NCBI GenBank assembly: GCA_035549315.1
Contig: DASZRC010000026.1
Coordinates: 988-64,987 of the forward strand
From: Patescibacteria group bacterium
Lineage (GTDB): Bacteria; Patescibacteriota; Microgenomatia; Levybacterales; GWA1-39-11
DNA length: 64,000 bases
Reading direction: 5' to 3'
Positions 1 to 56,177 of the stretch are shown here, in pieces; positions within the stretch are counted from its first letter, which is position 1, and each line of letters begins with the position of its first letter. A model generated the notes under the pieces. It saw only the letters and a program-made list of their open reading frames with translations, did no database searches and was not told the DNA's origin. Both the position numbers and the translations under genes were made by a program.

Positions 1-753
1 CTCTATGCTTCTTGTTTTTGATAGCATTACAACATTCGGAAGTGAAATCAGCCAATTAATTGCAATTTGGGCAGGTGTAGCACTATATTTCTGAGCCATT
101 TCATCTAGGATGTGCCCCTTTTCTGTAAGTAGCACGCTTTTTTGAAGTGGTCTCCAAGCGATAAACATAACATCATTTTGTTGGCAGTATTCAAGGAGTC
201 CCCTTCTTTGTGCTTCTCTGTATTTAAGGTTAAGATGAAGTTGATTAGCGACAATTTTACTATTTGTATAAGACTGTGCCTCCTTAAGTTCTTCTACATT
301 AAAATTACTTACTCCTACATTTCTAATTAGCCCCTCGTTCATTAATGTGTCCATCGCTCTCATAGTTTCTTTAACTGGAATTTCAGGATTGTATCTATGA
401 GCAAGATATAAATCTAGGTAAGGAGTATCAATTCTTTTAAGACTTTCTTTTGCAGCATGAATCATGTCATCATATGCAAGGTGGTCAGCATGAGCTTTTG
501 AAACAATAAATAATTTAGATCTTTCATATCCCTTAATTGCTCTTCCTACTAAAGTTTCTGCATAACCTTGAGCATAACTTTCTGCCGTATCAATATGGGT
601 GATACCTAAATCTATTGCGGCTTTTATTGCTTGAATATCTGCTTCGTCATCATTATCAGGATTGCGTGTTTCTCGTCCACCCATTTGCCAAGTTCCCAGT
701 CCATAAACGGGTATTTCAAAACCACTTTTTAATTTCTTTGTGGGGATTATCAT
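1..753 (-). CDS. aldo/keto reductase family oxidoreductase. Its C-terminal end runs off the window start.
   Basis: Translating the minus strand from the ATG at 753 gives MIIPTKKLKSGFEIPVYGLGTWQMGG...HIDTAESY...LDLYLAHR...SNF..., which carries AKR signature blocks. No stop is reached before position 1. It is not in the ORF track because it is truncated at the edge. Confidence 0.75.
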   Translation of the reverse strand, partial: MIIPTKKLKSGFEIPVYGLGTWQMGGRETRNPDNDDEADIQAIKAAIDLGITHIDTAESYAQGYAETLVGRAIKGYERSKLFIVSKAHADHLAYDDMIHAAKESLKRIDTPYLDLYLAHRYNPEIPVKETMRAMDTLMNEGLIRNVGVSNFNVEELKEAQSYTNSKIVANQLHLNLKYREAQRRGLLEYCQQNDVMFIAWRPLQKSVLLTEKGHILDEMAQKYSATPAQIAINWLISLPNVVMLSKTRSIE

Positions 754-886
754 GAGGTAATTATAGCACCAAAAGTACAAAGTATAATCGAGACCTTAAA
801 AACTTTCTAAACTTTATAACTTCTCAAACTATCATTGGGAATTAGAATCCAGTTGTTAATAAATATATAAAAGCTATACTAGGGAT

Positions 887-1768
887 ATGCAACGGAAAAT
901 ACTTGATCACTATCTTGAATATGGGATGTTTACTTATCCAGGACTTTATGAAGATTATTTCAAATCTTTACCAAATAATATTAGGGAGATTGGATACCTT
1001 TTGAGATGGTCTTTTATTCATAGGACTACTTTAGATGCTGGAAATAAATTCACAAATTCTGATTTGAAGTTCGGAGATATGAAAAAAGTACCATGGCACA
1101 GACAGGCTGAGGACGATAATTTAACAACAGCAGTAGCCATAATTGCGGAACTTTTTAGAAGAGATAGTAAAGGACTTACAAAAGAGAGGTTGGTTGAAGA
1201 TAAAGTTGTATTGACTTGCCGTCATATAGCTGTTCTTTTTGCCTCCATCCTAAAAGCCAAGGGAACACCCGTAAGAGTCCGTTCTGGCTTTGCAGGATAC
1301 TGGCCATGGGCAAAAGTAAGTGGAGACCATTGGATCAGCCAATACTGGGATAAGAAAAAAGAACGATGGGTTAATGTGGATATTGATGGGAGCTTCCACG
1401 ATACGGGGTTCGATATGTATGATATTCCCGATGGAAAATTTGAGTTTTCGGCAAACGCTTGGCTTGATGTTAGACAGAATAAAGTAGACGGTAAGCATTT
1501 TTTGAATGGGGACGGAACTCATGGACTAGTTGTTATAGCTTGGGAATTATTCTACGATTTTCATTGTCTTATGAACAATGAAATAATATACCTTCATCAT
1601 CCCCAGATAGCCACATATCAAGCATTCAAAAAACTGACAGAAAGTAAGCTACAGGAAATAGATCAGCTAGCAACCCTTATGCTAAATCCTGATGATAATT
1701 TTGAAAAACTGCAAAAGATTTGGGAAACAAATAAAGAATTTAGACTTCTAAAAGGCGGTTTGTTGTAA
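887..1768 (+). CDS. transglutaminase-like domain protein (putative Cys-His-Asp core)
   Basis: LTCRHIAVLFASIL (Cys) ... GDHWISQYWD (His) ... WVNVD (Asp), with spacing typical of the transglutaminase-like superfamily. Confidence 0.5.
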   Translation: MQRKILDHYLEYGMFTYPGLYEDYFKSLPNNIREIGYLLRWSFIHRTTLDAGNKFTNSDLKFGDMKKVPWHRQAEDDNLTTAVAIIAELFRRDSKGLTKERLVEDKVVLTCRHIAVLFASILKAKGTPVRVRSGFAGYWPWAKVSGDHWISQYWDKKKERWVNVDIDGSFHDTGFDMYDIPDGKFEFSANAWLDVRQNKVDGKHFLNGDGTHGLVVIAWELFYDFHCLMNNEIIYLHHPQIATYQAFKKLTESKLQEIDQLATLMLNPDDNFEKLQKIWETNKEFRLLKGGLL

Positions 1769-1770
1769 AT

Positions 1771-1786
1771 GACCAAAAGGTATTCC
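1771..1786. repeat. degenerate third copy of the tRNA-Glu 3'-end / att-like repeat (gaccaaaaggtattcc)
   Basis: Matches gacccaaaggtattcg at 2858-2873. That segment is itself a degenerate copy of the tRNA 3' half, cgaagtgaccccaatggaattcgaat. Confidence 0.35.
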
Positions 1787-1933
1787 CCGGGCGGAGCCAA
1801 GTCGGACTCGGTGACCCATCGTGTGACAGCACGGAATTACGTAATTCCTGAACTCATAAAACTTCACCGTTTGTTTGGTGAAGATGTATCAAGGCTAGGA
1901 TTTCAATCTCCATCCCCCCAATAGGTAATAGAA

Positions 1934-2830
1934 CTATGCAGATGCTTTTCCTAGTGTTGCCCAAACGATATTAGAAGTAATTGAACCACGCGCTTCTTCT
2001 AGTTCCATTTCCTTTGTTTCAGACTCTACTACTTTAAGACCAATATCTTGAAGCATATCTGTTTTCAACCATCCTCCAGTTGCTTCAAATAGTGGATTCC
2101 TATCAATAGTTCCTAAATCATTCAACAAAATTAAACCATCTTTGCTCAATTTGCTGGAAATATTTGCTAATGCTAACATTTGTCCACTCATCGGTAAATG
2201 ATACAATACATTTGTGCAATCAACGAAATCATATTCATCATTACCAATGTCTGCAATTGCTATATCCTCCTGAATTAACTTAATGTTTCCTGAATTAACT
2301 TTTTGCCCAAAGGTATGTGGGATTTCTGCTGCATGGATACCAACTCTCATATAGTATTCTGGTGGGAAAGTAATATCAGTATATCCGAAAACCAATCCCT
2401 CTTCCCCTTCATGGAGAACCCTATCTACTTGATGTGTCCATGATAAATAATCTTCCCAACAGCTTTTAGTTGATGGCAATTCCTGCATGCTAATAGAGGT
2501 TAGGTAAAGACTTTTTCTATTTTTAACTTCGGAAATTGCCTCTTCGGAAATATCAACAACCGACATATTGTAGTTCACGCCTTGTGACTCTAGGAATCCA
2601 GAGATAACGAAAGGAGAGTAGGTGCATACTAATGGATTCTCGTCCCCACCTTTATAACCTATTCCAACGAGTAATATGTTGGGAGTTTTATTTATTGGCA
2701 ATACCCTTTCACGCAAAACATCTATTGATTTTTGAGCTCTGCCAAAATTTGTTTCAACTCTGATTGGAGTATCAGCATTTGTTTGGTATTGTTCTCTTGC
2801 TGCGACTAACCAGCCTACTTCAGGTGACAT
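1934..2830 (-). CDS. hypothetical protein, possible class I SAM-dependent methyltransferase
   Basis: NILLVGIGYKGG is glycine-rich and motif-I-like. MSVVDISEE is an acidic post-I. YDFVDCTNVLYHL...DGLILL resembles motifs II/III. Assignment is weak and by eye only. Confidence 0.4.
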   Translation of the reverse strand: MSPEVGWLVAAREQYQTNADTPIRVETNFGRAQKSIDVLRERVLPINKTPNILLVGIGYKGGDENPLVCTYSPFVISGFLESQGVNYNMSVVDISEEAISEVKNRKSLYLTSISMQELPSTKSCWEDYLSWTHQVDRVLHEGEEGLVFGYTDITFPPEYYMRVGIHAAEIPHTFGQKVNSGNIKLIQEDIAIADIGNDEYDFVDCTNVLYHLPMSGQMLALANISSKLSKDGLILLNDLGTIDRNPLFEATGGWLKTDMLQDIGLKVVESETKEMELEEARGSITSNIVWATLGKASA

Positions 2831-2853
2831 GCTGGGAATTATATCACAGGCAC

Positions 2854-2877
2854 GAAAGACCCAAAGGTATTCGAATT
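2854..2877. repeat. degenerate direct copy of the tRNA-Glu 3' half (acceptor 3' strand + T-arm)
   Basis: cgaaagacccaaaggtattcgaatt versus the tRNA region cgaagtgaccccaatggaattcgaatc. The order and orientation are the same. Confidence 0.45.
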
Positions 2878-2930
2878 AATTTAGCCTTAAAATTAGAGCA
2901 GTTTTTAGAAGAGTATAATATTTAGCTTCG

Positions 2931-2949
2931 AGTGACCCCAATGGAATTC
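2931..2949. repeat. 19-bp perfect direct repeat of the tRNA-Glu 3' end (att-like)
   Basis: agtgaccccaatggaattc at 2931-2949 is identical to 3328-3346, which covers the tRNA 3' acceptor strand, the discriminator and half of the T-stem. Confidence 0.65.
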
Positions 2950-3329
2950 CCTTCAGCTCTCCTTCGGCTGCGCTCAGAATCGTTCAGGGTAAACTCAACT
3001 ATTCAAATTTCCTAAGAGGTCTTCAGCAACTTCAGTGCATGTATTTATTCCAATTTTTCCATCAACTAACATTTGTTTCTTTGCGTGAGACCAGCCTTTA
3101 AATTGTTTTTCTCTTTTTGCAGCTTCATATTTGTTTTCATATCTCTCTGCATAAACTAGTTTGAAATCAGAAAACTTTTTAGTAGAAATATTTTGTTTGT
3201 TTTTGTGCTGCGAGAATCTTTGAGAAAGTTGATCAGTAATTCCAACATAAAATGTTTTCTGATCGCAAAGAAGCATATATACAAACCACATGTTAGTTTT
3301 ATACTGTGCTTGCACTGAGCTTGCCGAAG
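2950..3329 (-). mobile_element. small insertion carrying a free-standing GIY-YIG endonuclease gene between tRNA-Glu and a duplicate of its 3' end
   Basis: Bounded by the tRNA 3' end (3330) and the 19-bp direct repeat (2931-2949). The only gene inside is GIY-YIG. Confidence 0.4.
2995..3291 (-). CDS. GIY-YIG nuclease family protein (small UPF0213-like)
   Basis: MWFVYMLLCDQKTFYVGITDQLSQRFSQH...KLVYAERYENKYEAAKREKQFKGW carries the GIY...YIG...R...H...E motifs. The track ORF 2995..3387 extends 32 codons upstream across the tRNA, so I start the gene at Met33. Confidence 0.7.
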   Translation of the reverse strand: MWFVYMLLCDQKTFYVGITDQLSQRFSQHKNKQNISTKKFSDFKLVYAERYENKYEAAKREKQFKGWSHAKKQMLVDGKIGINTCTEVAEDLLGNLNS

Positions 3330-3401
3330 TGACCCCAATGGAATTCGAATCCATGTTTTCAGGATGAGAACCTGATGTCCTAACCACTAGACTATGGGGC
3401 C
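3330..3401 (-). tRNA. tRNA-Glu(CUC)
   Basis: Minus-strand reading: GGCCCCA-TA-GTCT-AGTGGTTA-GGAC-A-TCAGG-TTCTCAT-CCTGA-AAAC-ATGGA-TTCGAAT-TCCAT-TGGGGTC-A. This is a 72-nt cloverleaf. Acceptor is 7 bp with one G-U, D-stem 4 bp, anticodon stem 5 bp, T-stem 5 bp and T-loop TTCGAAT. Anticodon is CTC with A37. CCA is not encoded. Confidence 0.8.
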
Positions 3402-3519
3402 TTAATTAATTTTTCAATCGCCTTCCGGCTCTTTAGAGATTTTAAATAATATTCCCTCTTTTTAGCTTCAGAGTTAGTATTATACGTCTCCTTATATATT
3501 AGCTCAAATGGTCCAATAT

Positions 3520-3580
3520 TAAAATTCAAAATTTAAAATTCTAAATAAGAATTAAGAATTAGAAATTAAGAATTACTTAT
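3520..3580. repeat. AT-rich tandem heptamer-like repeat (aattaag/aagaatt units) in a divergent intergenic region
   Basis: aaaattcaaaatttaaaattctaaataagaattaagaattagaaattaagaattac lies between the tRNA-Glu (minus strand) and malQ (+). Confidence 0.4.
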
Positions 3581-3670
3581 GTATTTTACCTTAAATTGAG
3601 GCTCGAACTCAAGCTATGTCAAGATAAATAGCAACCACTCTTAATTTCTTTCCCCTCTCTTACACTCCAA

Positions 3671-5086
3671 ATGATATGCTTTTCAATATTTATGAAGACT
3701 GGTAAGAAGATTATTGGGACTTTTGTACCCATCGGTTCACTTTTAAGCAATAAGCTGCCCAAAAATAAAAGAGGAACTTTTGAAGAGGGTCTTATATTTT
3801 TAGATTGGTTAAAAAAGACTAATCAATCTGCATGGCAATTTCTTCCTCTACATGAAACATATCTTAAACCTGGCTCAACAAATAAACATTCTTCCTCTCC
3901 ATATGATGGGTATAGTATAGGGTTTGACCCTATTTATCTCCCAAAATCTTATAAAAATATTACGCCAACAGATAGAGAAAAAAGTAACTTTGTTAAAGAA
4001 AATAAATCATGGATTTTGGATTATGCATTATTCTGCGCATTAAGGGATCATTTTAAAACAGATGATTGGAAAAAGTGGAAAGACAAATTAAGAAACCGTG
4101 ATAGGAGAGAATTAAAGATATGGGAGAAAAAACTAAAAAAAGAAATTAATAAATACATTATTATGCAATGGCAATTAAATAAAGCCTTTATTGAACTAAA
4201 AGCTAAGTCAAAAAAGCTAGGAATAATATTGATCGGCGACATGCCTTTTTATGTATCTAGAAAAAGTCCGTTGGTATGGGCAAACCAAAATGTTTTTAAT
4301 TTGGAAGATGATGGTAGTCTAAATTATGTATCGGGAGTAATTTCTGATGATCCAATGTTTGGTAGACAAGTTTGGGGTCATCCTTTATACAATTGGGATG
4401 ATAAAAAAAGACACAAAGAGATTATAGGTTTTTGGAAGAACAGAGTAGAATATGCCTCAAAATATTTTGACATCGTAAGAATAGATCATGCAATTGCATT
4501 TTTTGATTATGGAAAAATGCACAAAGAAAATGAGGATAAAGATATTCAAAAAAAAGGACCAGGGGAAAAGATTTTTAGAAATATTATTAACTTTGGGCGC
4601 AAACATAACCTTTCATTCTTTGTTGAAGATCAGGGAGACAATGTAGAAGACTTACGTAAAGCAATGAAAAAGTTAAAAGTTCCCGGTATTAAGATTTTGA
4701 GGATGGGAATTTTGGAAAAAGAAAATAAATTTGATGAACAACATTTAAATCCTAAAAAGTATGGGAAAAATACAGTTGCCTATACAACAACACATGATAC
4801 GGAAACTCTTTTGGGTTTCCTATCTATTATTGATGATAAGCAAAAGAGAGCTTTGGTAGAGGCCTCTAACTTACCATACGAAAGGGATGATAATAAATTA
4901 TTAGTTCACCTTAGGAATTCTGTTATTAACTCTCCTGCAAAAACTGTAATTATTCCTATTCAAGATTTTTTAGGAATTAAGGACAGGATAAACGTTCCCG
5001 GCACTACGGAATCAAGTAATAATAAAAATTGGAAGTTTAGAATACCTCTCCCCATAGAAGAATTGCCTACCAATATTTTTAGTTAA
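3671..5086 (+). CDS. malQ: 4-alpha-glucanotransferase (amylomaltase, GH77)
   Basis: WQFLPLHET...SPYDGYSIGFDPIYL...GDMPFYVSRKSPLVWANQNVF...RIDHAIAFFDY are GH77 blocks. The true start may be Met8 at 3692. Confidence 0.75.
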   Translation: MICFSIFMKTGKKIIGTFVPIGSLLSNKLPKNKRGTFEEGLIFLDWLKKTNQSAWQFLPLHETYLKPGSTNKHSSSPYDGYSIGFDPIYLPKSYKNITPTDREKSNFVKENKSWILDYALFCALRDHFKTDDWKKWKDKLRNRDRRELKIWEKKLKKEINKYIIMQWQLNKAFIELKAKSKKLGIILIGDMPFYVSRKSPLVWANQNVFNLEDDGSLNYVSGVISDDPMFGRQVWGHPLYNWDDKKRHKEIIGFWKNRVEYASKYFDIVRIDHAIAFFDYGKMHKENEDKDIQKKGPGEKIFRNIINFGRKHNLSFFVEDQGDNVEDLRKAMKKLKVPGIKILRMGILEKENKFDEQHLNPKKYGKNTVAYTTTHDTETLLGFLSIIDDKQKRALVEASNLPYERDDNKLLVHLRNSVINSPAKTVIIPIQDFLGIKDRINVPGTTESSNNKNWKFRIPLPIEELPTNIFS

Positions 5087-5847
5087 GTATTTCCTAACAA
5101 ATTTTGACATACCTTGCAGTAGAAGCTTTTTCTTTTAAACTTTCCGGTAGTTTCCCATGTAACTTTCCCACCACAATTTGGGCAAATACTTTTTCTATAG
5201 ATTTTTAAGTTCTTTTTTAATTCATATTTTTTTCTCAGTTCGCAGAACAGTTTTGAAAAATTTACAGACGTATTAATTAGCTCTTTTATTTTTGCATCCT
5301 CCAGGTTTGAGATTTTTTCCTTAGGGTTTAGTCTTGTTAAAAAAAGAACTTCATTCTTTATTATGTTTCCCACACCTGCAAATATTGTCTGGTCAAGCAA
5401 AACATCATCAATTTCTTCATCCTCCTGATCCTTAATTTGTTGAAACGCTTTGTCCGGATCAAATTTTTTAGACATGATGCTTATTGAATAGTCGTAGTCC
5501 CTTTTCAGATTACTGGTTTCAAATATCTTTATGGAGCAATTAAAAAAAGTTATGTCACCATTATCAAATTCAAATTTAAGCCGGGGAGTTTGAGATTTCT
5601 TATAGTCCCCCGTTATTGACGAGCCGTTAATATTTGCTTCAAATGTTCCGTAGAGTAAGAAATGTATACGCATAGCAAAATCATCAAATTGGAAGACTAG
5701 GTGTTTTCCCCAAGAAAATATATCAATAACTATTTTGTTAGTAAACCTTTCTTTTCCAACTTTTGTGTTTCCGCTAACTATTTTTATTTTCTTACCCTTA
5801 AAAAGGATTAATTGTTCTTCTGCTAAAAATAATGAGGGACCTTCCAT
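5083..5847 (-). CDS. Fpg/Nei family DNA glycosylase (formamidopyrimidine-DNA glycosylase / endonuclease VIII-like)
   Basis: N-terminal MEGPSLFLAEEQL is a PE(L/G)PE-type catalytic N-terminus. The C-terminal zinc finger is CPNCGGKV...FYCKVCQ. Confidence 0.7.
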   Translation of the reverse strand: MEGPSLFLAEEQLILFKGKKIKIVSGNTKVGKERFTNKIVIDIFSWGKHLVFQFDDFAMRIHFLLYGTFEANINGSSITGDYKKSQTPRLKFEFDNGDITFFNCSIKIFETSNLKRDYDYSISIMSKKFDPDKAFQQIKDQEDEEIDDVLLDQTIFAGVGNIIKNEVLFLTRLNPKEKISNLEDAKIKELINTSVNFSKLFCELRKKYELKKNLKIYRKSICPNCGGKVTWETTGKFKRKSFYCKVCQNLLGNT

Positions 5848-5848
5848 T

Positions 5849-6571
5849 TTAAAACATGTTTTTTAGTTCCAGTGCATTTTTTGTTGCGTACCCTCCATTA
5901 TCATTATTGAAAAATGCGAAAACTTCTTTATCTTTGGAATACTTATTTATTTTTTTTGACCAATTCAAAAGTTCTGACTTTGAATAGCCGGAAGAGTATA
6001 AACCTTTTGGTCCATGAAATCTTATGTAGACTAATTTATTCCCCGGGAGTTCTATTTCCGGAAATTTAGATGATTGGGAAATAACAAGTGTCGAATTGTT
6101 TTTGCCGAGTAGTTTTTCTACTTTTTCTACAAACCATCCCTTTTCTCTAAATTCAAAAGCATGTTTTATGTTTTGGGGTAAGATCTCTAAAAAGTATTTT
6201 AGACGTTCAAAGTGCTCCACACTATAAGAGAAGTTAGCTGGAAATTGCCACAAAACAACTTTTAACTTTTCTTGTAGAGGCTTGGCATTTTCAAAAAATA
6301 AACTTACCGAGTCTTCTATGTTTTTAAGTTTTTTGAGCTGTGTTATATATCTATGCCCCTTAATTACAAAGTTAAAATCTTTTGGTGTTTCCAGATACCA
6401 ATTTTGGTAAGTTTTAGGTTTTACTGTAACGTAGAAGCTGTTATTTATTTCAACCGTATTAAAAATGCCAGAATAGTAGGGCAACCATTTTTTTTGAGGT
6501 AAGTCGTCAGGATAAAAGCTACCCTTCCATTCACGGTAGTTATATCCAGATGTGCCAATGTATATTTTCAT
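5849..6571 (-). CDS. DUF72 (UPF0759/YecE-like) family protein
   Basis: MKIYIGTSGYNYREWKGSFYP...YSGIFNTVEINNSFY is the DUF72 signature. Start is set at Met10 so the gene abuts the upstream one. Confidence 0.7.
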   Translation of the reverse strand: MKIYIGTSGYNYREWKGSFYPDDLPQKKWLPYYSGIFNTVEINNSFYVTVKPKTYQNWYLETPKDFNFVIKGHRYITQLKKLKNIEDSVSLFFENAKPLQEKLKVVLWQFPANFSYSVEHFERLKYFLEILPQNIKHAFEFREKGWFVEKVEKLLGKNNSTLVISQSSKFPEIELPGNKLVYIRFHGPKGLYSSGYSKSELLNWSKKINKYSKDKEVFAFFNNDNGGYATKNALELKNMF

Positions 6572-6572
6572 G

Positions 6573-7415
6573 TCATCCATTAACAGGATGGCCACCATTT
6601 ATATGTATAGTTTGTCCTGTGATATAGGAGGAATCACTTGATGCTAAAAACAAAAAGCCGGTTGCTACTTCATAGGGCTGGCCGGGTCTACCAAGTGGAG
6701 TATCTTTCCCAAAATCTTTAAGTTTGTCTTGCGGAAAAGTTGAATAAACAAGTGGGGTCCATATAGGTCCTGGAGCAACTGCATTTACTCTTATACCCTT
6801 TTTTGCTAGATTTTGAGATAGCGACCTTGTAAAGCTAACTATTGCCCCCTTGGTAGAAGAATAATCTATAAGTTGTTCCCGCCCTTGGTATGCAACAACA
6901 GAAGCAGTATTTATTATTGAGCTACCGGGTTTTAAATATTTTAATGCTGCTTGAGTCATAAAAAACATAGAAAAAATGTTTGTCCTAAAAGTTTTGATAA
7001 GTTGTTCTTCTGATATCTCTTCTATGTTTTCCTTTGAGTGTTGTTCGCCGGCATTATTAACTACAATATCTAGAGCTTTAAATTTATCAACAGTTTTGCT
7101 AATTGCATCATCGCAGAAATCCTTATTCCCAACATCCCCCTTTATTAAGATGCAGTCAACACCAAGCTTTTCAATTGTTTTTTTTGTTTCCTCCGCATCT
7201 TCATCTGACTCGTTATAAACTATGGAAATTTTTGCTCCTTCTTTTGCAAATAAGATGGCTGTAGCCTTTCCTATTCCGCTATCTCCGCCTGTAACAATCG
7301 CAACTTTACCCAACAACTTTTTTATTTCACGGTAATCAGGATCAACACTAATTGGTTTGGGATTCATATCCAATTCTTTTCCGGGAGATTTTTGTGGTGG
7401 ATTATCTTGATTCAT
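6573..7415 (-). CDS. SDR family NAD(P)-dependent oxidoreductase (YghA-like)
   Basis: VAIVTGGDSGIGKA (TGxxxGxG), NNAG, and YSSTKGA (YxxxK). Start is set at Met16 so it does not overlap the DUF3072 gene. Confidence 0.75.
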   Translation of the reverse strand: MNQDNPPQKSPGKELDMNPKPISVDPDYREIKKLLGKVAIVTGGDSGIGKATAILFAKEGAKISIVYNESDEDAEETKKTIEKLGVDCILIKGDVGNKDFCDDAISKTVDKFKALDIVVNNAGEQHSKENIEEISEEQLIKTFRTNIFSMFFMTQAALKYLKPGSSIINTASVVAYQGREQLIDYSSTKGAIVSFTRSLSQNLAKKGIRVNAVAPGPIWTPLVYSTFPQDKLKDFGKDTPLGRPGQPYEVATGFLFLASSDSSYITGQTIHINGGHPVNG

Positions 7416-7416
7416 A

Positions 7417-7635
7417 TTAATTGGTTTGTCCACGTCCGGTAATTTTCTGAAGCTCTTCAATTTTTTCTGCAGCTTGCGCTTTAGTCATACCCTTCACGTC
7501 TGTCTCTACCCCTGCCTCTTGACTCATAGTTTCGATATATGAGATTTGTGCGCCTGTTGCACGCTCTTCGCCTGTTTTCCAATCTTCAGGGTCCTTTCTG
7601 GTATTATCCGGTAATTTATTTGATTGATTTAACAT
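7417..7635 (-). CDS. DUF3072 domain protein
   Basis: DPEDWKTGEERATGAQISYIETMSQEAG matches the DUF3072 pattern. Confidence 0.55.
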   Translation of the reverse strand: MLNQSNKLPDNTRKDPEDWKTGEERATGAQISYIETMSQEAGVETDVKGMTKAQAAEKIEELQKITGRGQTN

Positions 7636-7749
7636 AAGTCTAATTTAGACCAACCAAATAATATATTGGTAAAACTTAGGTAAGAATATGACAAAAATGA
7701 ACGAAAGTTATTGTAATAGTAATTAAATTTACCTATACTTGTGATAGAT

Positions 7750-8520
7750 ATGAGGGCAATTTGGTCAGGTTCAATAAATTTTGGATTAGTCAATATTCCG
7801 GTTAGGTTATTTCCGGCTACAGAAGACAAAAATATAGACTTTGACTATTTACATAAAAAAGATTTATCAAGAATTCGTTATGCAAAGTTTTGTGAAAAAG
7901 AAGATAAGGAAGTTGAATACAAGGATATAGTTCGGGGTTTTGAATATCGTGAAGGTGACTATGTAGTTGTAACAGATGAAGATATTAAAAGAGCAAGTCC
8001 GGAAAAAACAGACTCAATCCAAATTTTAAGTTTTGCTAAGGTAGATCAGATTGATACTCAATATTTTGACACGCCATATTATATTGAGCCGGTTAAATCC
8101 GCGCAAAAGGCCTACTATTTATTGTATGAGTCACTTAAAGAGACTAAGACAGTTGGAGTTGCAAGTTTTATCTTAAGAACTCGTGAATCCCTTGCTGTTT
8201 TAAAACCACATTCCAATATGATTATTCTTAACAAGATAAGGTTTAGTGAAGAGATAAGAAGTCATAAGGAATTATCAATTCCTGACAATGAAAGGGTTTC
8301 AAAAGCAGAAATAGAAATGGCAACTTCATTAATTGAGAAATTAACAAAACCTTTTGATCCGGAAGACTACAAGGATACCTATAGAGATAAATTGGAGAAG
8401 TTAATACTTAAGAAAGCAAAGGGAGAAAAACTTCCCGAGCTTAAAAAAGCAAAGCCGCCAGCAGATGTTAAGGATCTTATGTCACTTCTAAAAGAGAGCC
8501 TTAATAATCCATCCGCATAA
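7750..8520 (+). CDS. ku: Ku protein (NHEJ DNA end-binding)
   Basis: MRAIWSGSINFGLVNIPVRLFPA is the canonical bacterial Ku N-terminus. The track ORF begins at GTG 7741. Confidence 0.8.
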   Translation: MRAIWSGSINFGLVNIPVRLFPATEDKNIDFDYLHKKDLSRIRYAKFCEKEDKEVEYKDIVRGFEYREGDYVVVTDEDIKRASPEKTDSIQILSFAKVDQIDTQYFDTPYYIEPVKSAQKAYYLLYESLKETKTVGVASFILRTRESLAVLKPHSNMIILNKIRFSEEIRSHKELSIPDNERVSKAEIEMATSLIEKLTKPFDPEDYKDTYRDKLEKLILKKAKGEKLPELKKAKPPADVKDLMSLLKESLNNPSA

Positions 8521-8526
8521 GACCTG

Positions 8527-10986
8527 ATGACACTTTCAAAATATAACGAAAAAAGGAGATTTAACAAAACTCCGGAACCCGTAGGTAAAGAAAAAAAACA
8601 CAAGGGGAAGCTGGAATTTGTAATTCAAAAGCACCACGCTACGCAACTTCACTATGACTTTAGGTTAGAAGCGGGCGGAGTTCTAAAAAGCTGGGCTGTG
8701 CCAAAAGGACCATCTCTGGATCCTGCTACTAAGCGGTTGGCAATGATGGTTGAAGATCATCCCTATGATTACAGAAATTTTGAAGGGGTAATACCGGAAG
8801 GCAATTATGGCGCGGGTAATGTAATCATTTGGGATCAGGGTACATACGAATCGGTAGTTGATCCTCAAAATTCGGAGAAAGAAATTTTAAAAGAACTTAA
8901 TCAGGGCAGTATTAAATTTAGATTGTTTGGAAAAAAACTCCATGGCTTATGGGCGTTAGTCAAACTAAAAAATGCAGAGGAAAATGCTTGGTTATTAATA
9001 AAAGATAGGGACGAATATGCATCGGATAAGGATATTACGGAAAACGACAAGTCAATTATCTCCGGGGCAAGGGTAGATGAAATAAATAAAAAACAAAACA
9101 AAAATTTTAAGAAAATGTTGGAATCTCTTCCAAAAGAAAAGCCACCGGAATTTATTAAACCAATGCTTGCAACACTAATAGATAAACCATTTGATAATAA
9201 GGATTTTATTTTTGAAATAAAATGGGATGGATATCGGGCAATTGCTGATACTGTTGGTAAAAAAGTAAGACTTTATTCAAGAAATAAAATTTCCTTTAAT
9301 GATCATTATCCAGAGATTGTTGAAGCATTAGGAAATTCAAAAATAAATGCTGTATTGGATGGGGAAATTGTGGTTGTAGATGATAATGGAAAGCCGGATT
9401 TTCAAGCATTACAAAATTACAGAAAAGTAAAAACCGGGAATTTGCTTTATTACGTTTTTGATATTCTTTTTCTTGATGGAAGAAATTTAATGGGCCTTCC
9501 TCTGATAGATAGAAAAAAGATTTTGGAAAAAGTTATTCCGGAAAATAGCCAAATTAAATTGGGAACCCACATCGAAGAAAAAGGCGTAAGGTTTTTTGAA
9601 GCGGCAAAAAAAGAAGGTATAGAGGGTGTGGTTGCAAAACGTGGTGATAGTAGTTATTCCCCCGGAATACGCGGAAACAATTGGTTAAAAATTAAAACTC
9701 ATGCCAGACAAGAAGTTATTATTTGTGGTTTTACAAAACCCAAAGGAGGAAGGAAATATTTTGGGGCGTTAATTCTTGGAGTTTATAAAGATAATGAGCT
9801 TACATATGTTGGCCACACGGGAAGTGGTTTTGATGAGCAAAGCCTAAAGGATATGGATGGCATTTTGCAAAAACTAATCGTTGAAAAATCACCTTTCAAA
9901 AAAGTACCAAAGACTAATACTCCGGCAACTTGGGTTAAGCCAAAGCTTATATGCGAAGTGGAATTTTCTGAATGGACAGAAGGCGGTAATATGAGACAAC
10001 CAATTTTTAAGGGTCTTAGAACAGATAAGGATATAAAAGAAGTTACAACTGAAAAAGCAAAAGAAGAAGAAAAAGTTCTAGAGGATAGTGGGATTGAATT
10101 GTCTAATCCGGACAAGATTTTTTGGCCAAGAGAAAAATATACCAAGGGAGATCTGGCAAATTATTACAAAAGTATTTCAAAATTTATTTTGCCTTATCTT
10201 AAAAATAGACCGGAATCTCTAAAGCGTTACCCTAATGGAATTGAAGGAGATTTTTTCTTCCAGAAAGACTTTACTTATGAGTTGCCAAAGTTTGCGGACT
10301 CTATTAAGATTCATTCCGATAGCGAGGACAAAGAGATAAATTATCTTGTTTGTAACAATGAAGAAACACTTTTGTACATGGTTAACTTAGGCTGTATTGA
10401 TATTAATCCTTGGAATAGCAGAGTGGATAACCTTGAGAAGCCGGACTACCTAATTGTTGATTTGGATCCGGAAGAGATAGGTTTTGATAAAGTTATTGAT
10501 GCAGCGCTTGAGGTGAGAAAAGTTTTGGATGAGCTAGAAGTTAAAAGTTATCCTAAGACTTCGGGTGCAACCGGGATTCATATTTATATACCAACCGGTG
10601 GCGAATACACACATGAACAAGGCAGAAGGCTTTGTGAAGTTATAGTAAATATTGTTAACAGCAGAGTACCGGAGTACACAAGTATTACAAGGAGTCCATC
10701 AAAAAGAAAAGGAAAAGTTTATTTGGATTTTCTTCAAAATAGGGTAGGTCAAACGCTTGCTTCACCATATTCTGTTAGGCCAAGGCCGCATGCTACAGTT
10801 TCAGCGCCTCTTAAATGGAGTGAGGTTAAAAAAGGTTTAACTCCGGATGATTTTACTATTAAAAATATTTTGAAAAGGGTAGAAAAAGAAGGTGATTTAT
10901 TTAAAGAAGTATTAAGTGAAGAGCTAAATATGAAAAAGACGCTAAAAAATCTTGAAGATAAATTTGCAGATATAATTAGCTCCTAA
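8527..10986 (+). CDS. ligD: ATP-dependent DNA ligase LigD, three-domain (phosphoesterase - ligase - polymerase/primase)
   Basis: PE domain: HYDFRLEAGGVLKSWAVPKGPS. Ligase motif I: EIKWDGYR. C-terminal LigD Pol domain: IFWPREKYTKGDLANYY...PNGIEGDFFFQKD. Confidence 0.85.
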   Translation: MTLSKYNEKRRFNKTPEPVGKEKKHKGKLEFVIQKHHATQLHYDFRLEAGGVLKSWAVPKGPSLDPATKRLAMMVEDHPYDYRNFEGVIPEGNYGAGNVIIWDQGTYESVVDPQNSEKEILKELNQGSIKFRLFGKKLHGLWALVKLKNAEENAWLLIKDRDEYASDKDITENDKSIISGARVDEINKKQNKNFKKMLESLPKEKPPEFIKPMLATLIDKPFDNKDFIFEIKWDGYRAIADTVGKKVRLYSRNKISFNDHYPEIVEALGNSKINAVLDGEIVVVDDNGKPDFQALQNYRKVKTGNLLYYVFDILFLDGRNLMGLPLIDRKKILEKVIPENSQIKLGTHIEEKGVRFFEAAKKEGIEGVVAKRGDSSYSPGIRGNNWLKIKTHARQEVIICGFTKPKGGRKYFGALILGVYKDNELTYVGHTGSGFDEQSLKDMDGILQKLIVEKSPFKKVPKTNTPATWVKPKLICEVEFSEWTEGGNMRQPIFKGLRTDKDIKEVTTEKAKEEEKVLEDSGIELSNPDKIFWPREKYTKGDLANYYKSISKFILPYLKNRPESLKRYPNGIEGDFFFQKDFTYELPKFADSIKIHSDSEDKEINYLVCNNEETLLYMVNLGCIDINPWNSRVDNLEKPDYLIVDLDPEEIGFDKVIDAALEVRKVLDELEVKSYPKTSGATGIHIYIPTGGEYTHEQGRRLCEVIVNIVNSRVPEYTSITRSPSKRKGKVYLDFLQNRVGQTLASPYSVRPRPHATVSAPLKWSEVKKGLTPDDFTIKNILKRVEKEGDLFKEVLSEELNMKKTLKNLEDKFADIISS

Positions 10987-55903: not shown

Positions 55904-56177
55904 TTTTAAATCTTGGTATGTTTTATTATATATATATGTCTTAAAGTCAGACAAGGATAAAATGTTCTATACTGGTTATACTAAAGATTTAAAATTAAGA
56001 TTTAAGCAACACATGGATAAAAAGGTTCAATCTACTAAAAAGAGGGGAAGGCTTAGGCTAATTTATTACGAAGCATGCTTGAATCAACAAGATGCTACCC
56101 ATAGGGAAAAATATCTCAAAACGTATTTGGGAAAAATGTTTTTAAGGAATAGACTTAAATCTTATTTAACAGGGTAA
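55887..56177 (+). CDS. GIY-YIG nuclease family protein. No canonical start codon upstream of the conserved N-terminal strand, so it may be non-canonically initiated or N-terminally decayed.
   Basis: The track ORF 55962..56177 (MFYTGYTKDLKLRFKQH...RLIYYEACLNQQDATHREKYLK) lacks the first GIY beta-strand. The same frame upstream, back to the stop at 55884, encodes SWYVLLYIYVLKSDKDK, which supplies that strand. That stretch contains no ATG, GTG or TTG. Confidence 0.45.
   Translation, partial: LTLLNNFKSWYVLLYIYVLKSDKDKMFYTGYTKDLKLRFKQHMDKKVQSTKKRGRLRLIYYEACLNQQDATHREKYLKTYLGKMFLRNRLKSYLTG

What the first reader, a model, noticed from the sequence alone, without database searches (positions are those of the whole stretch)
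1771..3401. tRNA-Glu(CUC) followed by nested direct repeats of its own 3' end, enclosing a GIY-YIG nuclease gene and a methyltransferase-like gene
The 72-nt tRNA (3401 to 3330, minus strand) is followed on its 3' side by the GIY-YIG gene (3291-2995). Next comes a perfect 19-bp copy of the tRNA 3' end (2931-2949). A more degenerate, longer copy covering the T-loop follows at 2854-2877. A third degenerate copy sits at 1771-1786, immediately after the stop of the transglutaminase-like gene. The MTase-like gene (1934-2830) lies between copies 2 and 3. This is the signature of serial site-specific insertions into the tRNA 3' end (attL/attR regeneration). No integrase is present, so the elements are either decayed islands or tiny homing-endonuclease-driven cassettes.
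Basis: seen in the sequence. Interest (0 to 1): 0.55.

Follow-up and report, generated by a model that had tools for sequence, protein, structure and literature searches.

The report
Tiny nuclease cassette inserted behind tRNA-Glu
A 380-bp cassette carrying only a 98-residue GIY-YIG nuclease gene sits in the tail of a tRNA-Glu gene and has duplicated the tRNA's last 19 bases, and the same layout recurs behind at least five kinds of tRNA in many uncultured (CPR) bacteria, pointing to a family of miniature tRNA-targeting mobile elements I could not find described.

Summary
tRNA-Glu(CUC) lies at 3329-3401 (-). Its last 19 bases recur perfectly at 2931-2949, the only two matches in 64 kb. A 98-aa GIY-YIG gene lies between the copies. 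Two degenerate copies (2855-2877, 1768-1786) bracket a rare methyltransferase-like gene.

The GIY segment is a discrete unit. In a relative (L141) the orthologous tRNA-Glu runs straight into the sequence that follows the second repeat here, so that site is empty.

In 16 loci carrying relatives of this nuclease, the gene lies between a tRNA's 3' end and a 12-20 nt copy of that tRNA's T-loop-to-3'-end segment. Seven anticodons are involved (Glu, Asn, Gln, Tyr, His).

The units are 344-413 bp. They start with a nearly invariant 22-nt arm (CTTCGGCAAGCTCAGTGCAAGC) and end with its inverted copy against the repeat. None contains a recombinase. The left arm also pairs with the end of the ORF; compensatory changes and many G·U pairs indicate an RNA helix.

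Best reading: a selfish mini-cassette that lodges in tRNA gene tails without breaking the tRNA and is expressed by read-through. That the nuclease drives movement is inferred.

The methyltransferase "island" is plausible cargo but weakly supported. I found no published description.

The parts
3329..3401 (-). tRNA-Glu(CUC), intact; host gene of the insertion
   Evidence: ARAGORN. Rfam RF00005, 68 bits. Orthologous tRNAs occur in L141, L146 and L040.
3328..3346 (-). Repeat copy 1 (GAATTCCATTGGGGTCACT on the minus strand): tRNA positions about 57-73 plus 2 nt, from the middle of the T-loop to just past the discriminator
3308..3329 (-). Left arm L, CTTCGGCAAGCTCAGTGCAAGC, starting at the tRNA's last base. 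It is the leader of the GIY mRNA.
   Evidence: Perfect copy here, and the only near-exact copy in the window (its partner R1 matches with 5 mismatches). It has 0-1 mismatch in 15 of the 17 family loci in which one search found it, always directly after a tRNA 3' end or fragment.
2995..3291 (-). GIY-YIG nuclease gene, 98 aa, of the UPF0213 / Slx1-like standalone type
   Evidence: Pfam PF01541 at 1.6e-16. PDB 1zg2 and 1ywl. 311 homologues; the 39 aligned are 63-77% identical. Y5, Y15, G17, R25, H29 and E61 are conserved.
3021..3042 (-). Right arm R1, inside the ORF (codes TCTEVAE); pairs with L
   Evidence: 18 of 22 pairs here. Across 16 loci, 88.6% of cells are paired, 7 pairs show compensatory change, G·U pairs are frequent, and 0 of 500 shuffles reach these values. 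The minimum-free-energy fold uses this helix, z = -3.1.
2950..2994 (-). Right end R2 (GTTTACCCTGA...CTGAGCGCAGCCGAAGG...GCTGAAGG): a post-stop inverted copy of L, flush with repeat copy 2
   Evidence: The conserved right end GTTTACC..CTGAGC..GCCGAAGG directly abuts the repeat in L061, L063, L064, L067, L069, L073, L141 and L142.
2931..2949 (-). Repeat copy 2: the displaced original tRNA 3' end, followed by the original trailer
   Evidence: 19 of 19 bases match copy 1. Copy 2 plus about 95 nt downstream aligns with the L141 tRNA-Glu 3' end plus its trailer.
2878..2930 (-). Old trailer or spacer starting CGAAGCTAAAT (possibly a decayed L-like end); shared with L141
   Evidence: Alignment. The motif AAGCTAAAT is also found after the MTase homologue in L053. 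Reading it as a decayed arm is my inference.
2855..2877 (-). Repeat copy 3, degenerate (ATTCGAATACCTTTGGGTC...)
   Evidence: A homologous degenerate stretch exists in L141, so this copy is old.
1934..2830 (-). Methyltransferase-like ORF, 298 aa; candidate cargo
   Evidence: Weak Pfam MTase hits below cutoff. Only 14 homologues among 5.8e9 proteins. Replaced by an unrelated ORF in L141. The 57% homologue follows tRNA-Asn plus a GIY gene in L053.
1862..1883 (-). Terminator-like hairpin after the MTase-like ORF
   Evidence: Consensus scan only.
1787..1835 (-). G+C-rich stretch containing TGGGTCAC (1811-1818); possible relic of an older cassette end
   Evidence: GGGTCAC has 4 minus-strand hits in the window, 3 of them in this region. 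Only an 8-mer is shared with L140 and L141. Weak support.
1768..1786 (-). Repeat copy 4, degenerate (GAATACCTTTTGGTCATT), abutting the stop of the transglutaminase-like gene
   Evidence: 16 of 18 bases match copy 3. It is one of the four pattern hits. Not significant on its own.
3395..3529 (-). Truncated GIY-YIG pseudogene (C-terminal 45 codons) ending inside the tRNA 5' end: an older, different GIY lineage
   Evidence: Pfam 6.7e-5, 23.5 bits against a 22.6 cutoff. Its tail resembles the intact GIY gene 12 nt upstream of the orthologous tRNA-Glu in L040.
3583..3612 (-). Promoter-like site (TTGAGT-18-TAAAAT), probably serving the tRNA and by read-through the cassette
   Evidence: Consensus scan. 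The -10 region is conserved with L008, where it lies 10 nt before the tRNA-Glu. Function is inferred.

Best explanation
Positions 2950-3329 are one copy of a miniature selfish cassette family that lodges in the 3' end of tRNA genes.

Shown:
- The unit is a 22-nt left arm L, a 98-aa Slx1-like GIY-YIG nuclease gene, and an inverted right end R2.
- It is bracketed by two copies of tRNA positions about 57-75 (T-loop to just past the discriminator).
- The tRNA therefore stays intact, and its displaced original 3' end plus trailer lies behind the cassette.
- Presence or absence of the unit varies between relatives.
- The same architecture recurs behind Glu, Asn, Gln, Tyr and His tRNAs.

Inferred:
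- The nuclease nicks or cuts the tRNA gene in the T-loop region. The cassette then enters either by a staggered break filled in to a 17-19-bp duplication, or, as I think more likely, by a Campbell-type crossover within the 17-19-bp tRNA segment carried on an excised copy. The second route is favoured because nuclease lineages largely track tRNA species.
- Recombination between the repeats would excise the unit precisely.
- The gene probably has no promoter of its own and is transcribed by read-through from the tRNA promoter.
- After 3' processing of the tRNA, the mRNA begins with L. L pairs with the end of the ORF (R1) or with R2 in a helix of about 21 bp, which probably stabilises or processes the message.

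Repeated hits at the same tRNA push older units and their repeats downstream. That accounts for copies 3 and 4 and possibly the methyltransferase-like cargo.
For: Perfect 19-bp repeat, unique in 64 kb.

Empty site: the orthologous tRNA-Glu of L141 continues directly into the sequence that follows copy 2 here, alignable for about 95 nt.

Family-wide architecture:
- 24 of 80 metagenome loci with relatives have a same-strand tRNA ending within 320 nt upstream. Among loci with at least 350 nt of upstream sequence the figure is 19 of 64, against 0.28 expected.
- In 16 loci the tRNA's own T-loop-to-3' segment recurs just after the gene. It is perfect in the window, L063, L064, L067, L069, L072, L106, L141 and L146. 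It has 1-3 mismatches in L061, L065, L066, L071, L073, L081 and L142.
- Each of the loci tested beats 200 shuffles, apart from L073 (p = 0.035).

Unit boundaries and derivatives:
- Units are 344-413 bp with flush conserved ends and no recombinase.
- L is nearly invariant while the proteins are 52-79% identical.
- Derivatives exist: an ORF-less unit (L074), a unit carrying a non-GIY ORF (L062) and a pseudogenised copy (L075).

Other support:
- The RNA helix shows covariation and an MFE z-score of -3.1.
- Catalytic residues are conserved.
- Proteins cluster by tRNA species, with a five-member Glu cluster at 66-79% identity. There is an exception: Gln-linked L067 falls among the Asn-linked proteins.
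Against: - No enzymology exists. A 98-aa nuclease domain with no separate DNA-binding domain has not been shown to cut tRNA genes or to move anything.
- Strong protein conservation and clustering by tRNA species also fit old, vertically inherited genes.
- In L064 and L141 the repeat after the cassette perfectly matches a tRNA 1.2-1.8 kb upstream. The fragment next to L does not match. This needs composite units or gene conversion to explain.
- L147 and L148 differ from L146 exactly at the left junction, so simple insertion is not the whole story.
- An ORF-less 148-bp insert without L or R2 shows the same kind of tRNA repeat in L015. Some other agent can therefore make such repeats.
- Insertion and precise loss cannot be told apart from the comparison between the window and L141.
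Confidence: 0.65

Rival explanations
1. These are classical tRNA-targeting integrative islets. A tyrosine or serine recombinase, lost from the islet or acting in trans, integrated circular elements at an att site spanning the T-loop to the tRNA 3' end. The GIY gene and the methyltransferase-like gene would be mere cargo.
For: - The repeat (T-loop to 3' end, 17-19 bp) is exactly the identity block known for T-loop-class att sites (my knowledge: Williams 2002, Nucleic Acids Res).
- A close relative, L003, has a 6.7-kb module after the transglutaminase-like gene. It carries a large serine recombinase and ends at tRNA-Lys.
- L015 has an ORF-less insert with the same type of repeat but no L or R2 arms.
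- Nuclease lineages largely track tRNA species.
Against: - None of about 13 complete units contains a recombinase. All are 344-413 bp with the same flush ends.
- Seven anticodons are used, which would need several site-specific recombinases in small genomes.
- No recombinase is annotated within about 6 kb to the right of the tRNA or down to the left end of the window.
- The cassette ends are inverted repeats adjoining the duplication, which is not an attP arm layout.
Confidence: 0.17
2. This is a resident, non-mobile host gene. The small nuclease is an old tRNA-linked gene, perhaps acting on tRNA or RNA, co-transcribed with tRNAs. The downstream tRNA-like repeat and the arms would be RNA processing or stability signals kept by selection or gene conversion.
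For: - Conservation is very high; the 39 aligned homologues are 63-77% identical.
- Proteins cluster by tRNA species.
- The leader-tail helix has G·U pairs and compensatory changes, pointing to an RNA-level constraint.
- The repeat after the cassette stays perfect relative to a distant tRNA in L064 and L141.
- Published fusions and neighbourhoods link Slx1-like GIY-YIG proteins with tRNA methyltransferases (PMC1564403).
Against: - The orthologous tRNA-Glu in L141 is an empty site.
- The repeats are decaying in seven loci.
- There is a pseudogenised copy (L075), an ORF-less unit (L074) and a unit with a foreign ORF (L062).
- Tandem chains occur, and the same family sits behind five different kinds of tRNA.
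Confidence: 0.13
3. The repeat is due to chance or an assembly artefact.
For: The two degenerate copies are individually within chance expectation.
Against: - For the 19-mer, 0 of 100 shuffles give even one extra match.
- The same arrangement appears in an independent assembly.
- The same architecture appears in 15 other loci.
Confidence: 0.01

Closest known systems
Genomic islands and prophages integrated at the T-loop sublocation of tRNA genes (tyrosine-integrase att sites; Williams 2002, from my knowledge)
   Same: - The direct repeat runs from the T-loop to the tRNA 3' end.
- The tRNA is kept intact, and the displaced 3' end lies at the far border.
- Tandem accretion at one tRNA is seen.
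   Different: - No recombinase gene is present.
- The unit is only about 0.38 kb.
- Inverted arms lie flush with the repeats.
- One element family uses at least seven anticodons.
Free-standing GIY-YIG homing endonuclease genes of T4-like phages (Seg proteins; SegB lies in the T4 tRNA gene cluster; PMC2988022 and PMC13096335 appeared; the details are from my knowledge)
   Same: A GIY-YIG nuclease gene lies lodged between or behind tRNA genes, behaves as a selfish insertion, and relies on host repair.
   Different: - Seg proteins are more than 200 aa and have DNA-binding domains.
- They belong to the I-TevI/UvrC branch, not the Slx1/UPF0213 branch.
- They have no target duplication and no inverted arms.
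- They are phage-borne. This family has essentially no presence in viral contigs.
Casposons (PMC4046053, seen; details from my knowledge)
   Same: Terminal inverted repeats plus an unusually long target duplication, with frequent insertion at tRNA gene 3' ends.
   Different: - They are 8-20 kb and encode a Cas1 integrase and a DNA polymerase.
- They are archaeal or occasionally bacterial elements.
- No GIY-YIG nuclease is involved.
REP/RAYT (REPIN) systems (from my knowledge)
   Same: A small nuclease gene is flanked by short G+C-rich inverted repeats, and these also occur as ORF-less derivatives.
   Different: - They use an HUH tyrosine transposase.
- They have no tRNA targeting and no tRNA-end duplication.
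UPF0213 / Slx1-like standalone GIY-YIG proteins (E. coli YhbQ, B. subtilis YazA, PDB 1zg2 and 1ywl; PMC1564403, PMC7017083)
   Same: Same protein family by sequence. The published phylogenomic analysis also noted methyltransferase neighbours and tRNA-methyltransferase fusions.
   Different: - That analysis regarded the family as vertically inherited repair or structure-specific nucleases.
- I found no report of tRNA-gene linkage, flanking tRNA-end repeats or inverted arms.

Membership tests
GIY-YIG nuclease superfamily, Slx1-like / UPF0213 branch | GIY-YIG domain profile match above the curated cutoff | tested here: met
   PF01541 at 60.8 bits against a 22.6 cutoff, covering profile positions 1-76 of 78.
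GIY-YIG nuclease superfamily, Slx1-like / UPF0213 branch | Conserved catalytic residues (two Tyr, Arg, His, Glu) and closest solved relatives in UPF0213 | tested here: met
   Y15, G17, R25, H29, R60 and E61 are invariant and Y5 is nearly invariant in 40 sequences. The profile hits 1zg2 (E 2e-10) and 1ywl (E 2e-8) and nothing else.
GIY-YIG nuclease superfamily, Slx1-like / UPF0213 branch | Nuclease activity | not testable with these tools
   Needs biochemistry.
Group I intron-encoded or free-standing GIY-YIG homing endonuclease (I-TevI/Seg type) | C-terminal DNA-binding module (NUMOD, helix-turn-helix or zinc finger) and membership of the NCBIfam intron-endonuclease family | tested here: not met
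   The protein is 98 aa and consists of the nuclease domain plus a 25-aa tail. TIGR01453 scores only 21.9 bits against a 56 cutoff.
Group I intron-encoded or free-standing GIY-YIG homing endonuclease (I-TevI/Seg type) | Residence in a self-splicing intron | tested here: not met
   No Intron_gpI match at 1-8000 at E<=1. Group I introns do occur inside the tRNAs of L063 and L066 but are separate from the cassette.
Integrase-type tRNA-targeted integrative element | Direct repeats made of the tRNA 3' segment at both borders | tested here: met
   19 of 19 bases here, and 15 further loci.
Integrase-type tRNA-targeted integrative element | A tyrosine or serine recombinase gene within the element | tested here: not met
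   The only ORF in the 380-bp unit is the GIY gene. No recombinase domain is annotated in the neighbourhood. The same holds for the other units.
DNA transposon / insertion sequence (terminal inverted repeats plus target-site duplication) | Inverted terminal repeats flush with a target duplication | tested here: met
   L (CTTCGGCAAGCTCAG...) and R2 (...CTGAGC..GCCGAAGG) directly adjoin the two repeat copies here and in at least 8 other loci.
DNA transposon / insertion sequence (terminal inverted repeats plus target-site duplication) | A recognised transposase (DDE, HUH, serine, tyrosine or Cas1) | tested here: not met
   Only a GIY-YIG domain is present.
DNA transposon / insertion sequence (terminal inverted repeats plus target-site duplication) | Multiple near-identical copies at different sites in one genome | not tested
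Class I SAM-dependent methyltransferase (for ORF 1934-2830) | Profile match above the curated cutoff | tested here: inconclusive
   The best match, Methyltransf_23, scores 23.2 bits against a 27 cutoff. There is no NCBIfam hit. PDB profile hits have E 0.06-0.4 and cover only the motif region.

The most novel reading that the evidence does not exclude
These cassettes are a previously unrecognised class of minimal autonomous mobile element. Its only protein would be a roughly 95-aa Slx1-like GIY-YIG nuclease. That enzyme would recognise tRNA genes through the conserved T-arm, or through the tRNA-like fold of the displaced DNA strand. It would cut at the T-loop and at the gene's 3' end. The cassette would then insert with a 17-19-bp duplication that preserves the tRNA, and would take its expression from the tRNA promoter. 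Cargo-carrying and ORF-less derivatives would be mobilised in trans, building small variable-gene hot spots behind tRNAs in CPR bacteria.
Probability: 0.3. Interest if true: 0.9.

Novelty: new variant of a known kind. Interest (0 to 1): 0.7.

Why it matters
- It would be among the smallest protein-coding mobile units known, about 380 bp. It would also give a first genomic role to the widespread but uncharacterised UPF0213/YhbQ-type nucleases.
- It shows how tRNA gene tails in tiny CPR genomes collect variable genes. Seen here or in relatives: a methyltransferase-like gene, a toxin-antitoxin pair, and two ORFs (in L147 and L141) with Rx4H motifs that look HEPN-like to me but were not profile-tested. 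No integrase is involved.
- The nearly invariant 22-nt arm and the tRNA-end duplication are easy search keys for a genome-wide census.
- A nuclease that recognises tRNA genes by shape would be an interesting specificity principle.
- Gene callers are also affected. They read through the tRNA and the arm, producing spurious N-terminal extensions such as "GHFGKLSAS" and "LRQAQCK".

Tried and rejected
- **Synteny through the transglutaminase-like gene.** 44 genome loci and three direct look-ups showed poorly conserved neighbourhoods. Only L008/L010 has the gene followed by tRNA-Glu(CUC). That tRNA differs in sequence and the contig ends there, so it is not a clean empty site.
- **tRNA-end repeats around the transglutaminase-like gene in 9 tRNA-adjacent loci.** None found.
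- **Rfam on the G+C-rich stretch 1769-1930 and on L008, L019 and L040.** Only tRNAs matched.
- **A group I intron around the GIY gene in the window.** None.
- **Homology between the window's MTase-like protein and L141 ORF307, which holds the same position.** None: BLASTP E 0.07 and hhalign probability 0.6%.
- **Reading 1787-1835 as the relic of an L141-type cassette.** Only the 8-mer TGGGTCAC is shared. I keep this as speculation.
- **A tRNA-end repeat in L053 (tRNA-Asn, GIY, MTase) and L019 (tRNA-Phe, GIY, tRNA-Gly).** None. That second GIY lineage has different flanks.
- **Viral contigs.** No exact L arm, and one distant protein hit.
- **Defence-system profiles.** Only marginal hits for the GIY protein.
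- **Literature.** Six full-text searches, including the arm sequence and its spurious peptide translations, found no description.
- **Correction of an early count.** My note of about 29 tRNA-adjacent loci was corrected to 24 of 80.
Full report

The window is contig CAZPDH010000007.1 of MAG GCA_964585445.1, a Patescibacteria (CPR) genome. Homologues of its genes are named Levybacteria or Roizmanbacteria.

- ARAGORN finds a single tRNA in 64 kb, tRNA-Glu(CUC) at 3329-3401 on the minus strand. Rfam agrees with 68 bits.
- Downstream on that strand lies a 98-aa ORF (3291-2995) with a strong GIY-YIG match, PF01541 at 1.6e-16.
- The 19-mer AGTGACCCCAATGGAATTC is present at 3328-3346 and 2931-2949 and nowhere else, even with three mismatches. 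None is expected by chance.
- On the tRNA strand the repeat is GAATTCCATTGGGGTCACT. It covers the second half of the T-loop, the 3' strands of the T and acceptor stems, the discriminator and two more bases.
- An independent assembly has the same arrangement (L002).

The two degenerate copies are individually no better than chance. A pattern describing all four copies hits only these four places in both strands of the window, all on the tRNA strand, against 0.04 hits in shuffles. I wrote the pattern after seeing the copies, so I treat copies 3 and 4 as probable but not proven relics.

**2. What lies around it**

- The transglutaminase-like gene (887-1768) has a weak but above-cutoff Transglut_core match.
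- The "methyltransferase" (1934-2830) is only methyltransferase-like. It has just 14 homologues in 5.8 billion clustered proteins.
It is the C-terminal 45 codons of a second, different GIY-YIG gene (3395-3529), and its reading frame ends inside the tRNA.
- An intact relative of this remnant sits 12 nt upstream of the orthologous tRNA-Glu in a Woesebacteria contig (L040).
- No recombinase is annotated within about 6 kb to the right of the tRNA or down to the left end of the window.

**3. The GIY segment is a discrete unit present in some relatives and absent in others**

L141 is the locus of a 75%-identical GIY protein. Its orthologous tRNA-Glu(CUC) differs from the window's by compensatory T-stem changes. 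It is followed directly by ACGAAGCTAAATTTATT.... In the window the same sequence (CGAAGCTAAATATTAT...) follows the second repeat, and the two align for about 95 nt.

So 2931-2949 is the original tRNA end with its original trailer, and 2950-3327 plus one repeat is extra DNA. Insertion here and precise loss there cannot be distinguished. Either way the unit is bounded by the repeats.

**4. The architecture is family-wide**

- The protein belongs to a tightly conserved subfamily. There are 311 hits at E<1e-5, and the 39 aligned are 63-77% identical.
- Many database gene calls carry spurious N-terminal extensions that are translations of a tRNA T-arm and of the motif that follows it.
- A metagenome scan with the alignment returned 80 loci.
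- Of these, 24 have a tRNA ending within 320 nt upstream on the same strand. Among loci with enough upstream sequence the figure is 19 of 64, against 0.28 expected. Only one locus has a tRNA just downstream.
- In every close homologue next to a tRNA, that tRNA's own T-loop-to-3' segment is repeated up to about 85 bp after the stop codon; in one locus the copy overlaps the stop.

Repeat quality by locus:

| Repeat | Loci (tRNA) |
|---|---|
| Perfect | window (Glu-CUC), L063 (Asn-like, by its 3' end), L064 (Asn), L067 (Gln-CUG), L069 (Asn), L072 (His), L106 (Gln-UUG), L141 (Glu-CUC), L146 (Glu-CUC, 12 nt only) |
| 1-3 mismatches | L061 (Asn), L065 (Tyr), L066 (Asn-like, by its 3' end), L071 (Tyr), L073 (Gln-CUG), L081 (Asn), L142 (Glu-UUC) |

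ARAGORN missed the tRNAs of L063 and L066 because they contain group I introns.

**5. Anatomy of the unit**

- Directly after the tRNA's end comes CTTCGGCAAGCTCAGTGCAAGC (arm L). It has 0-1 mismatch in 15 of the 17 family loci in which one search found it, although the proteins are only 52-79% identical.
- The unit ends with GTTTACC..CTGAGC..GCCGAAGG (R2), an inverted copy of L flush with the downstream repeat.
- From L to R2 the units measure 344-413 bp; this one is 380 bp.
- A further inverted copy (R1) lies inside the ORF and encodes the conserved tail ..CTExAE.

L and R1 form a helix of about 21 bp:
- 88.6% of cells are paired in 16 loci.
- Seven pairs show changes on both sides. For example, L073 has AAGC changed to TTTC opposite GCTT changed to GAAA.
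- No shuffle reaches these values, and slid registers give only 28-43% paired.
- Many pairs are G·U in the sense orientation. That argues for an RNA helix rather than only DNA inverted repeats.
- I picked the R1 register by maximal complementarity, which inflates the percentage paired but not the compensatory changes.
- The window's 408-nt transcript folds with this helix closing the ORF, z = -3.1.

**6. Derivatives and chains**

- L074 has an ORF-less L...R unit in tandem with a full unit, separated by the same 16-nt tRNA-like repeat.
- L062 has a second L...R2 unit carrying an unrelated 130-aa ORF. The whole pair is flanked by a repeat of about 30 bp.
- L075 is a pseudogenised copy.
- In L064 and L141 the perfect downstream repeat matches a tRNA 1.8 and 1.2 kb upstream. 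Cargo lies between them: a Phd/ParE pair in L064 and an ORF of unknown function in L141. A non-matching tRNA-like fragment lies next to L.
- L146 and L147/L148 are 95-96% identical from L rightwards. To the left they have tRNA-Glu and unrelated DNA respectively, with the breakpoint at GGGTCAC|L.

The tRNA/L junction is therefore a recombination hot spot, and serial accretion is common. That is what copies 2-4 in the window look like.

**7. The methyltransferase segment**

- It lies between copies 3 and 4, which resemble each other more than they resemble the tRNA.
- The spacer and copy 3 are shared with L141, so they are old.
- The ORF that follows differs. L141 has an unrelated 307-aa protein there.
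- The closest context-bearing homologue of the window's protein examined (57%) follows tRNA-Asn plus a GIY gene of the other lineage in L053. More distant homologues sit in ordinary operons.

I read it as replaceable cargo at a tRNA-tail hot spot. It is possibly the remains of a cargo-carrying unit like that of L062, but the ends are too decayed to show this. I put the probability at about 0.4.

**8. Mechanism**

Shown: a repeat-bounded, arm-bounded unit with presence/absence variation, recurring behind seven anticodons, with an intact conserved nuclease and an RNA helix.

Inferred:
- The nuclease attacks the tRNA gene near the T-loop.
- The unit enters by a crossover within the 17-19-bp tRNA segment it carries. 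I favour this because nuclease lineages mostly follow tRNA species. The alternative is a staggered cut with fill-in.
- Expression is by read-through from the tRNA promoter, since only 37 nt separate the tRNA and the ATG.
- The helix stabilises or processes the mRNA.

The protein is of the Slx1/UPF0213 type (PDB 1zg2, 1ywl). The eukaryotic members of that family are structure-specific nucleases (PMC7017083). This makes recognition of a tRNA-shaped DNA structure conceivable but untested. The genome encodes Ku and LigD nearby, which could seal breaks. That is only a remark.

**9. Rivals**

- **Integrase in trans.** It fits the type of repeat and the existence of recombinase-bearing islands in a close relative (L003). 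It does not fit the uniform 0.38-kb units, the flush inverted ends or the number of tRNA targets.
- **Resident host gene with RNA signals.** It fits the conservation and the RNA helix. It does not fit the empty site, the decaying repeats, the pseudogene, the ORF-less unit or the chains.
- **Chance or artefact.** Excluded for the 19-bp repeat.

**10. Novelty**

Six full-text searches, including the arm sequence and its peptide translations, found no description.

The 2006 phylogenomic study of GIY-YIG nucleases treated the prokaryotic Slx1-like proteins as vertically inherited. It noted methyltransferase neighbours and tRNA-methyltransferase fusions, but the passages my term search retrieved from it report no linkage to tRNA genes or flanking repeats (PMC1564403).

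The library is incomplete, so prior description cannot be excluded. I file it as a new variant of known kinds: free-standing homing-endonuclease cassettes and tRNA-targeted integrative elements. There is a real chance that it is a distinct class.

Noticed in passing
window 3395-3529 (-): A truncated GIY-YIG pseudogene (last 45 codons) abuts the 5' end of the tRNA, with its stop codon inside the tRNA. Its N-terminal half is replaced by AT-rich low-complexity DNA (3530-3580). An intact relative precedes the orthologous tRNA-Glu in L040.
   Followed up: partly
window about 55920-56177 (+): A third GIY-YIG gene of the 'REKYLK' lineage is not next to any tRNA. Its N-terminus has no ordinary start codon in frame, so it may use an alternative start or be frameshifted.
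   Followed up: no
window 7741-8520 and 8527-10986 (+): Ku and a full-length LigD (phosphoesterase, ligase and primase-polymerase domains) form a complete end-joining pair about 4 kb from the tRNA.
   Followed up: partly
L063 3503-3881; L066 3698-3892: Group I introns (Rfam, 75-87 bits) interrupt the very tRNA genes that carry GIY cassettes at their 3' ends. That puts two kinds of selfish element in one tRNA gene.
   Followed up: partly
L015 5571-5736: A 148-bp ORF-less, hairpin-rich insert after tRNA-Gln(UUG) is flanked by a perfect 18-bp repeat of the tRNA's T-loop-to-CCA end. It lacks the L and R2 arms, so another element type leaves the same footprint.
   Followed up: partly
L003 1141-7817 (also L004): In the closest relative (transglutaminase-like protein 86% identical), that gene is followed by a module of about 6.7 kb. 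It carries Replic_Relax, a TraG/VirD4-like ATPase and a large serine recombinase (6250-7806), and ends at tRNA-Lys(UUU).
   Followed up: partly
L014, L015, L016, L019, L027, L030, L040, L043, L050: The transglutaminase-like gene lies directly downstream of a same-strand tRNA of varying identity (Asp, Gln, Gly, Leu, Glu, Ser) in 9 of 44 genome loci. No tRNA-end repeat flanks it.
   Followed up: partly
L146 3954 vs L147 859 / L148: These contigs are 95-96% identical from the L arm rightwards but have different left flanks. L146 has tRNA-Glu(CUC). L147 and L148 have unrelated DNA with an ORF carrying an Rx4H motif that looks HEPN-like to me (not profile-tested). The copy number of a 20-nt leader repeat (ACTTGTCATCCTTTGCAAGC) also differs.
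   Followed up: partly
L053 1592-3130: The 57% homologue of the methyltransferase-like protein follows tRNA-Asn and a GIY gene of the other lineage. After its stop come CTTCGATTCCCAAGCTAAAT and a fragment (AAATCGTCCCATCGAGCGAGCA) nearly identical to the fragment next to the L arm in L064.
   Followed up: partly
L019 9108-9482: A GIY gene of the second lineage between tRNA-Phe and tRNA-Gly is flanked on both sides by short G+C-rich palindromes of the type GCGTTAAACGC / GCCGCGTAAAACGCGGC.
   Followed up: no
L008 8883-9036: The spacer between the transglutaminase-like gene and tRNA-Glu(CUC) in this relative is a 115-nt G+C-rich, hairpin-rich stretch in an AT-rich genome. It has no Rfam match and may be another cassette relic.
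   Followed up: partly
window 1835-1850: A perfect 16-bp palindrome, GGAATTACGTAATTCC, lies just downstream of the terminator-like hairpin of the methyltransferase-like gene.
   Followed up: no
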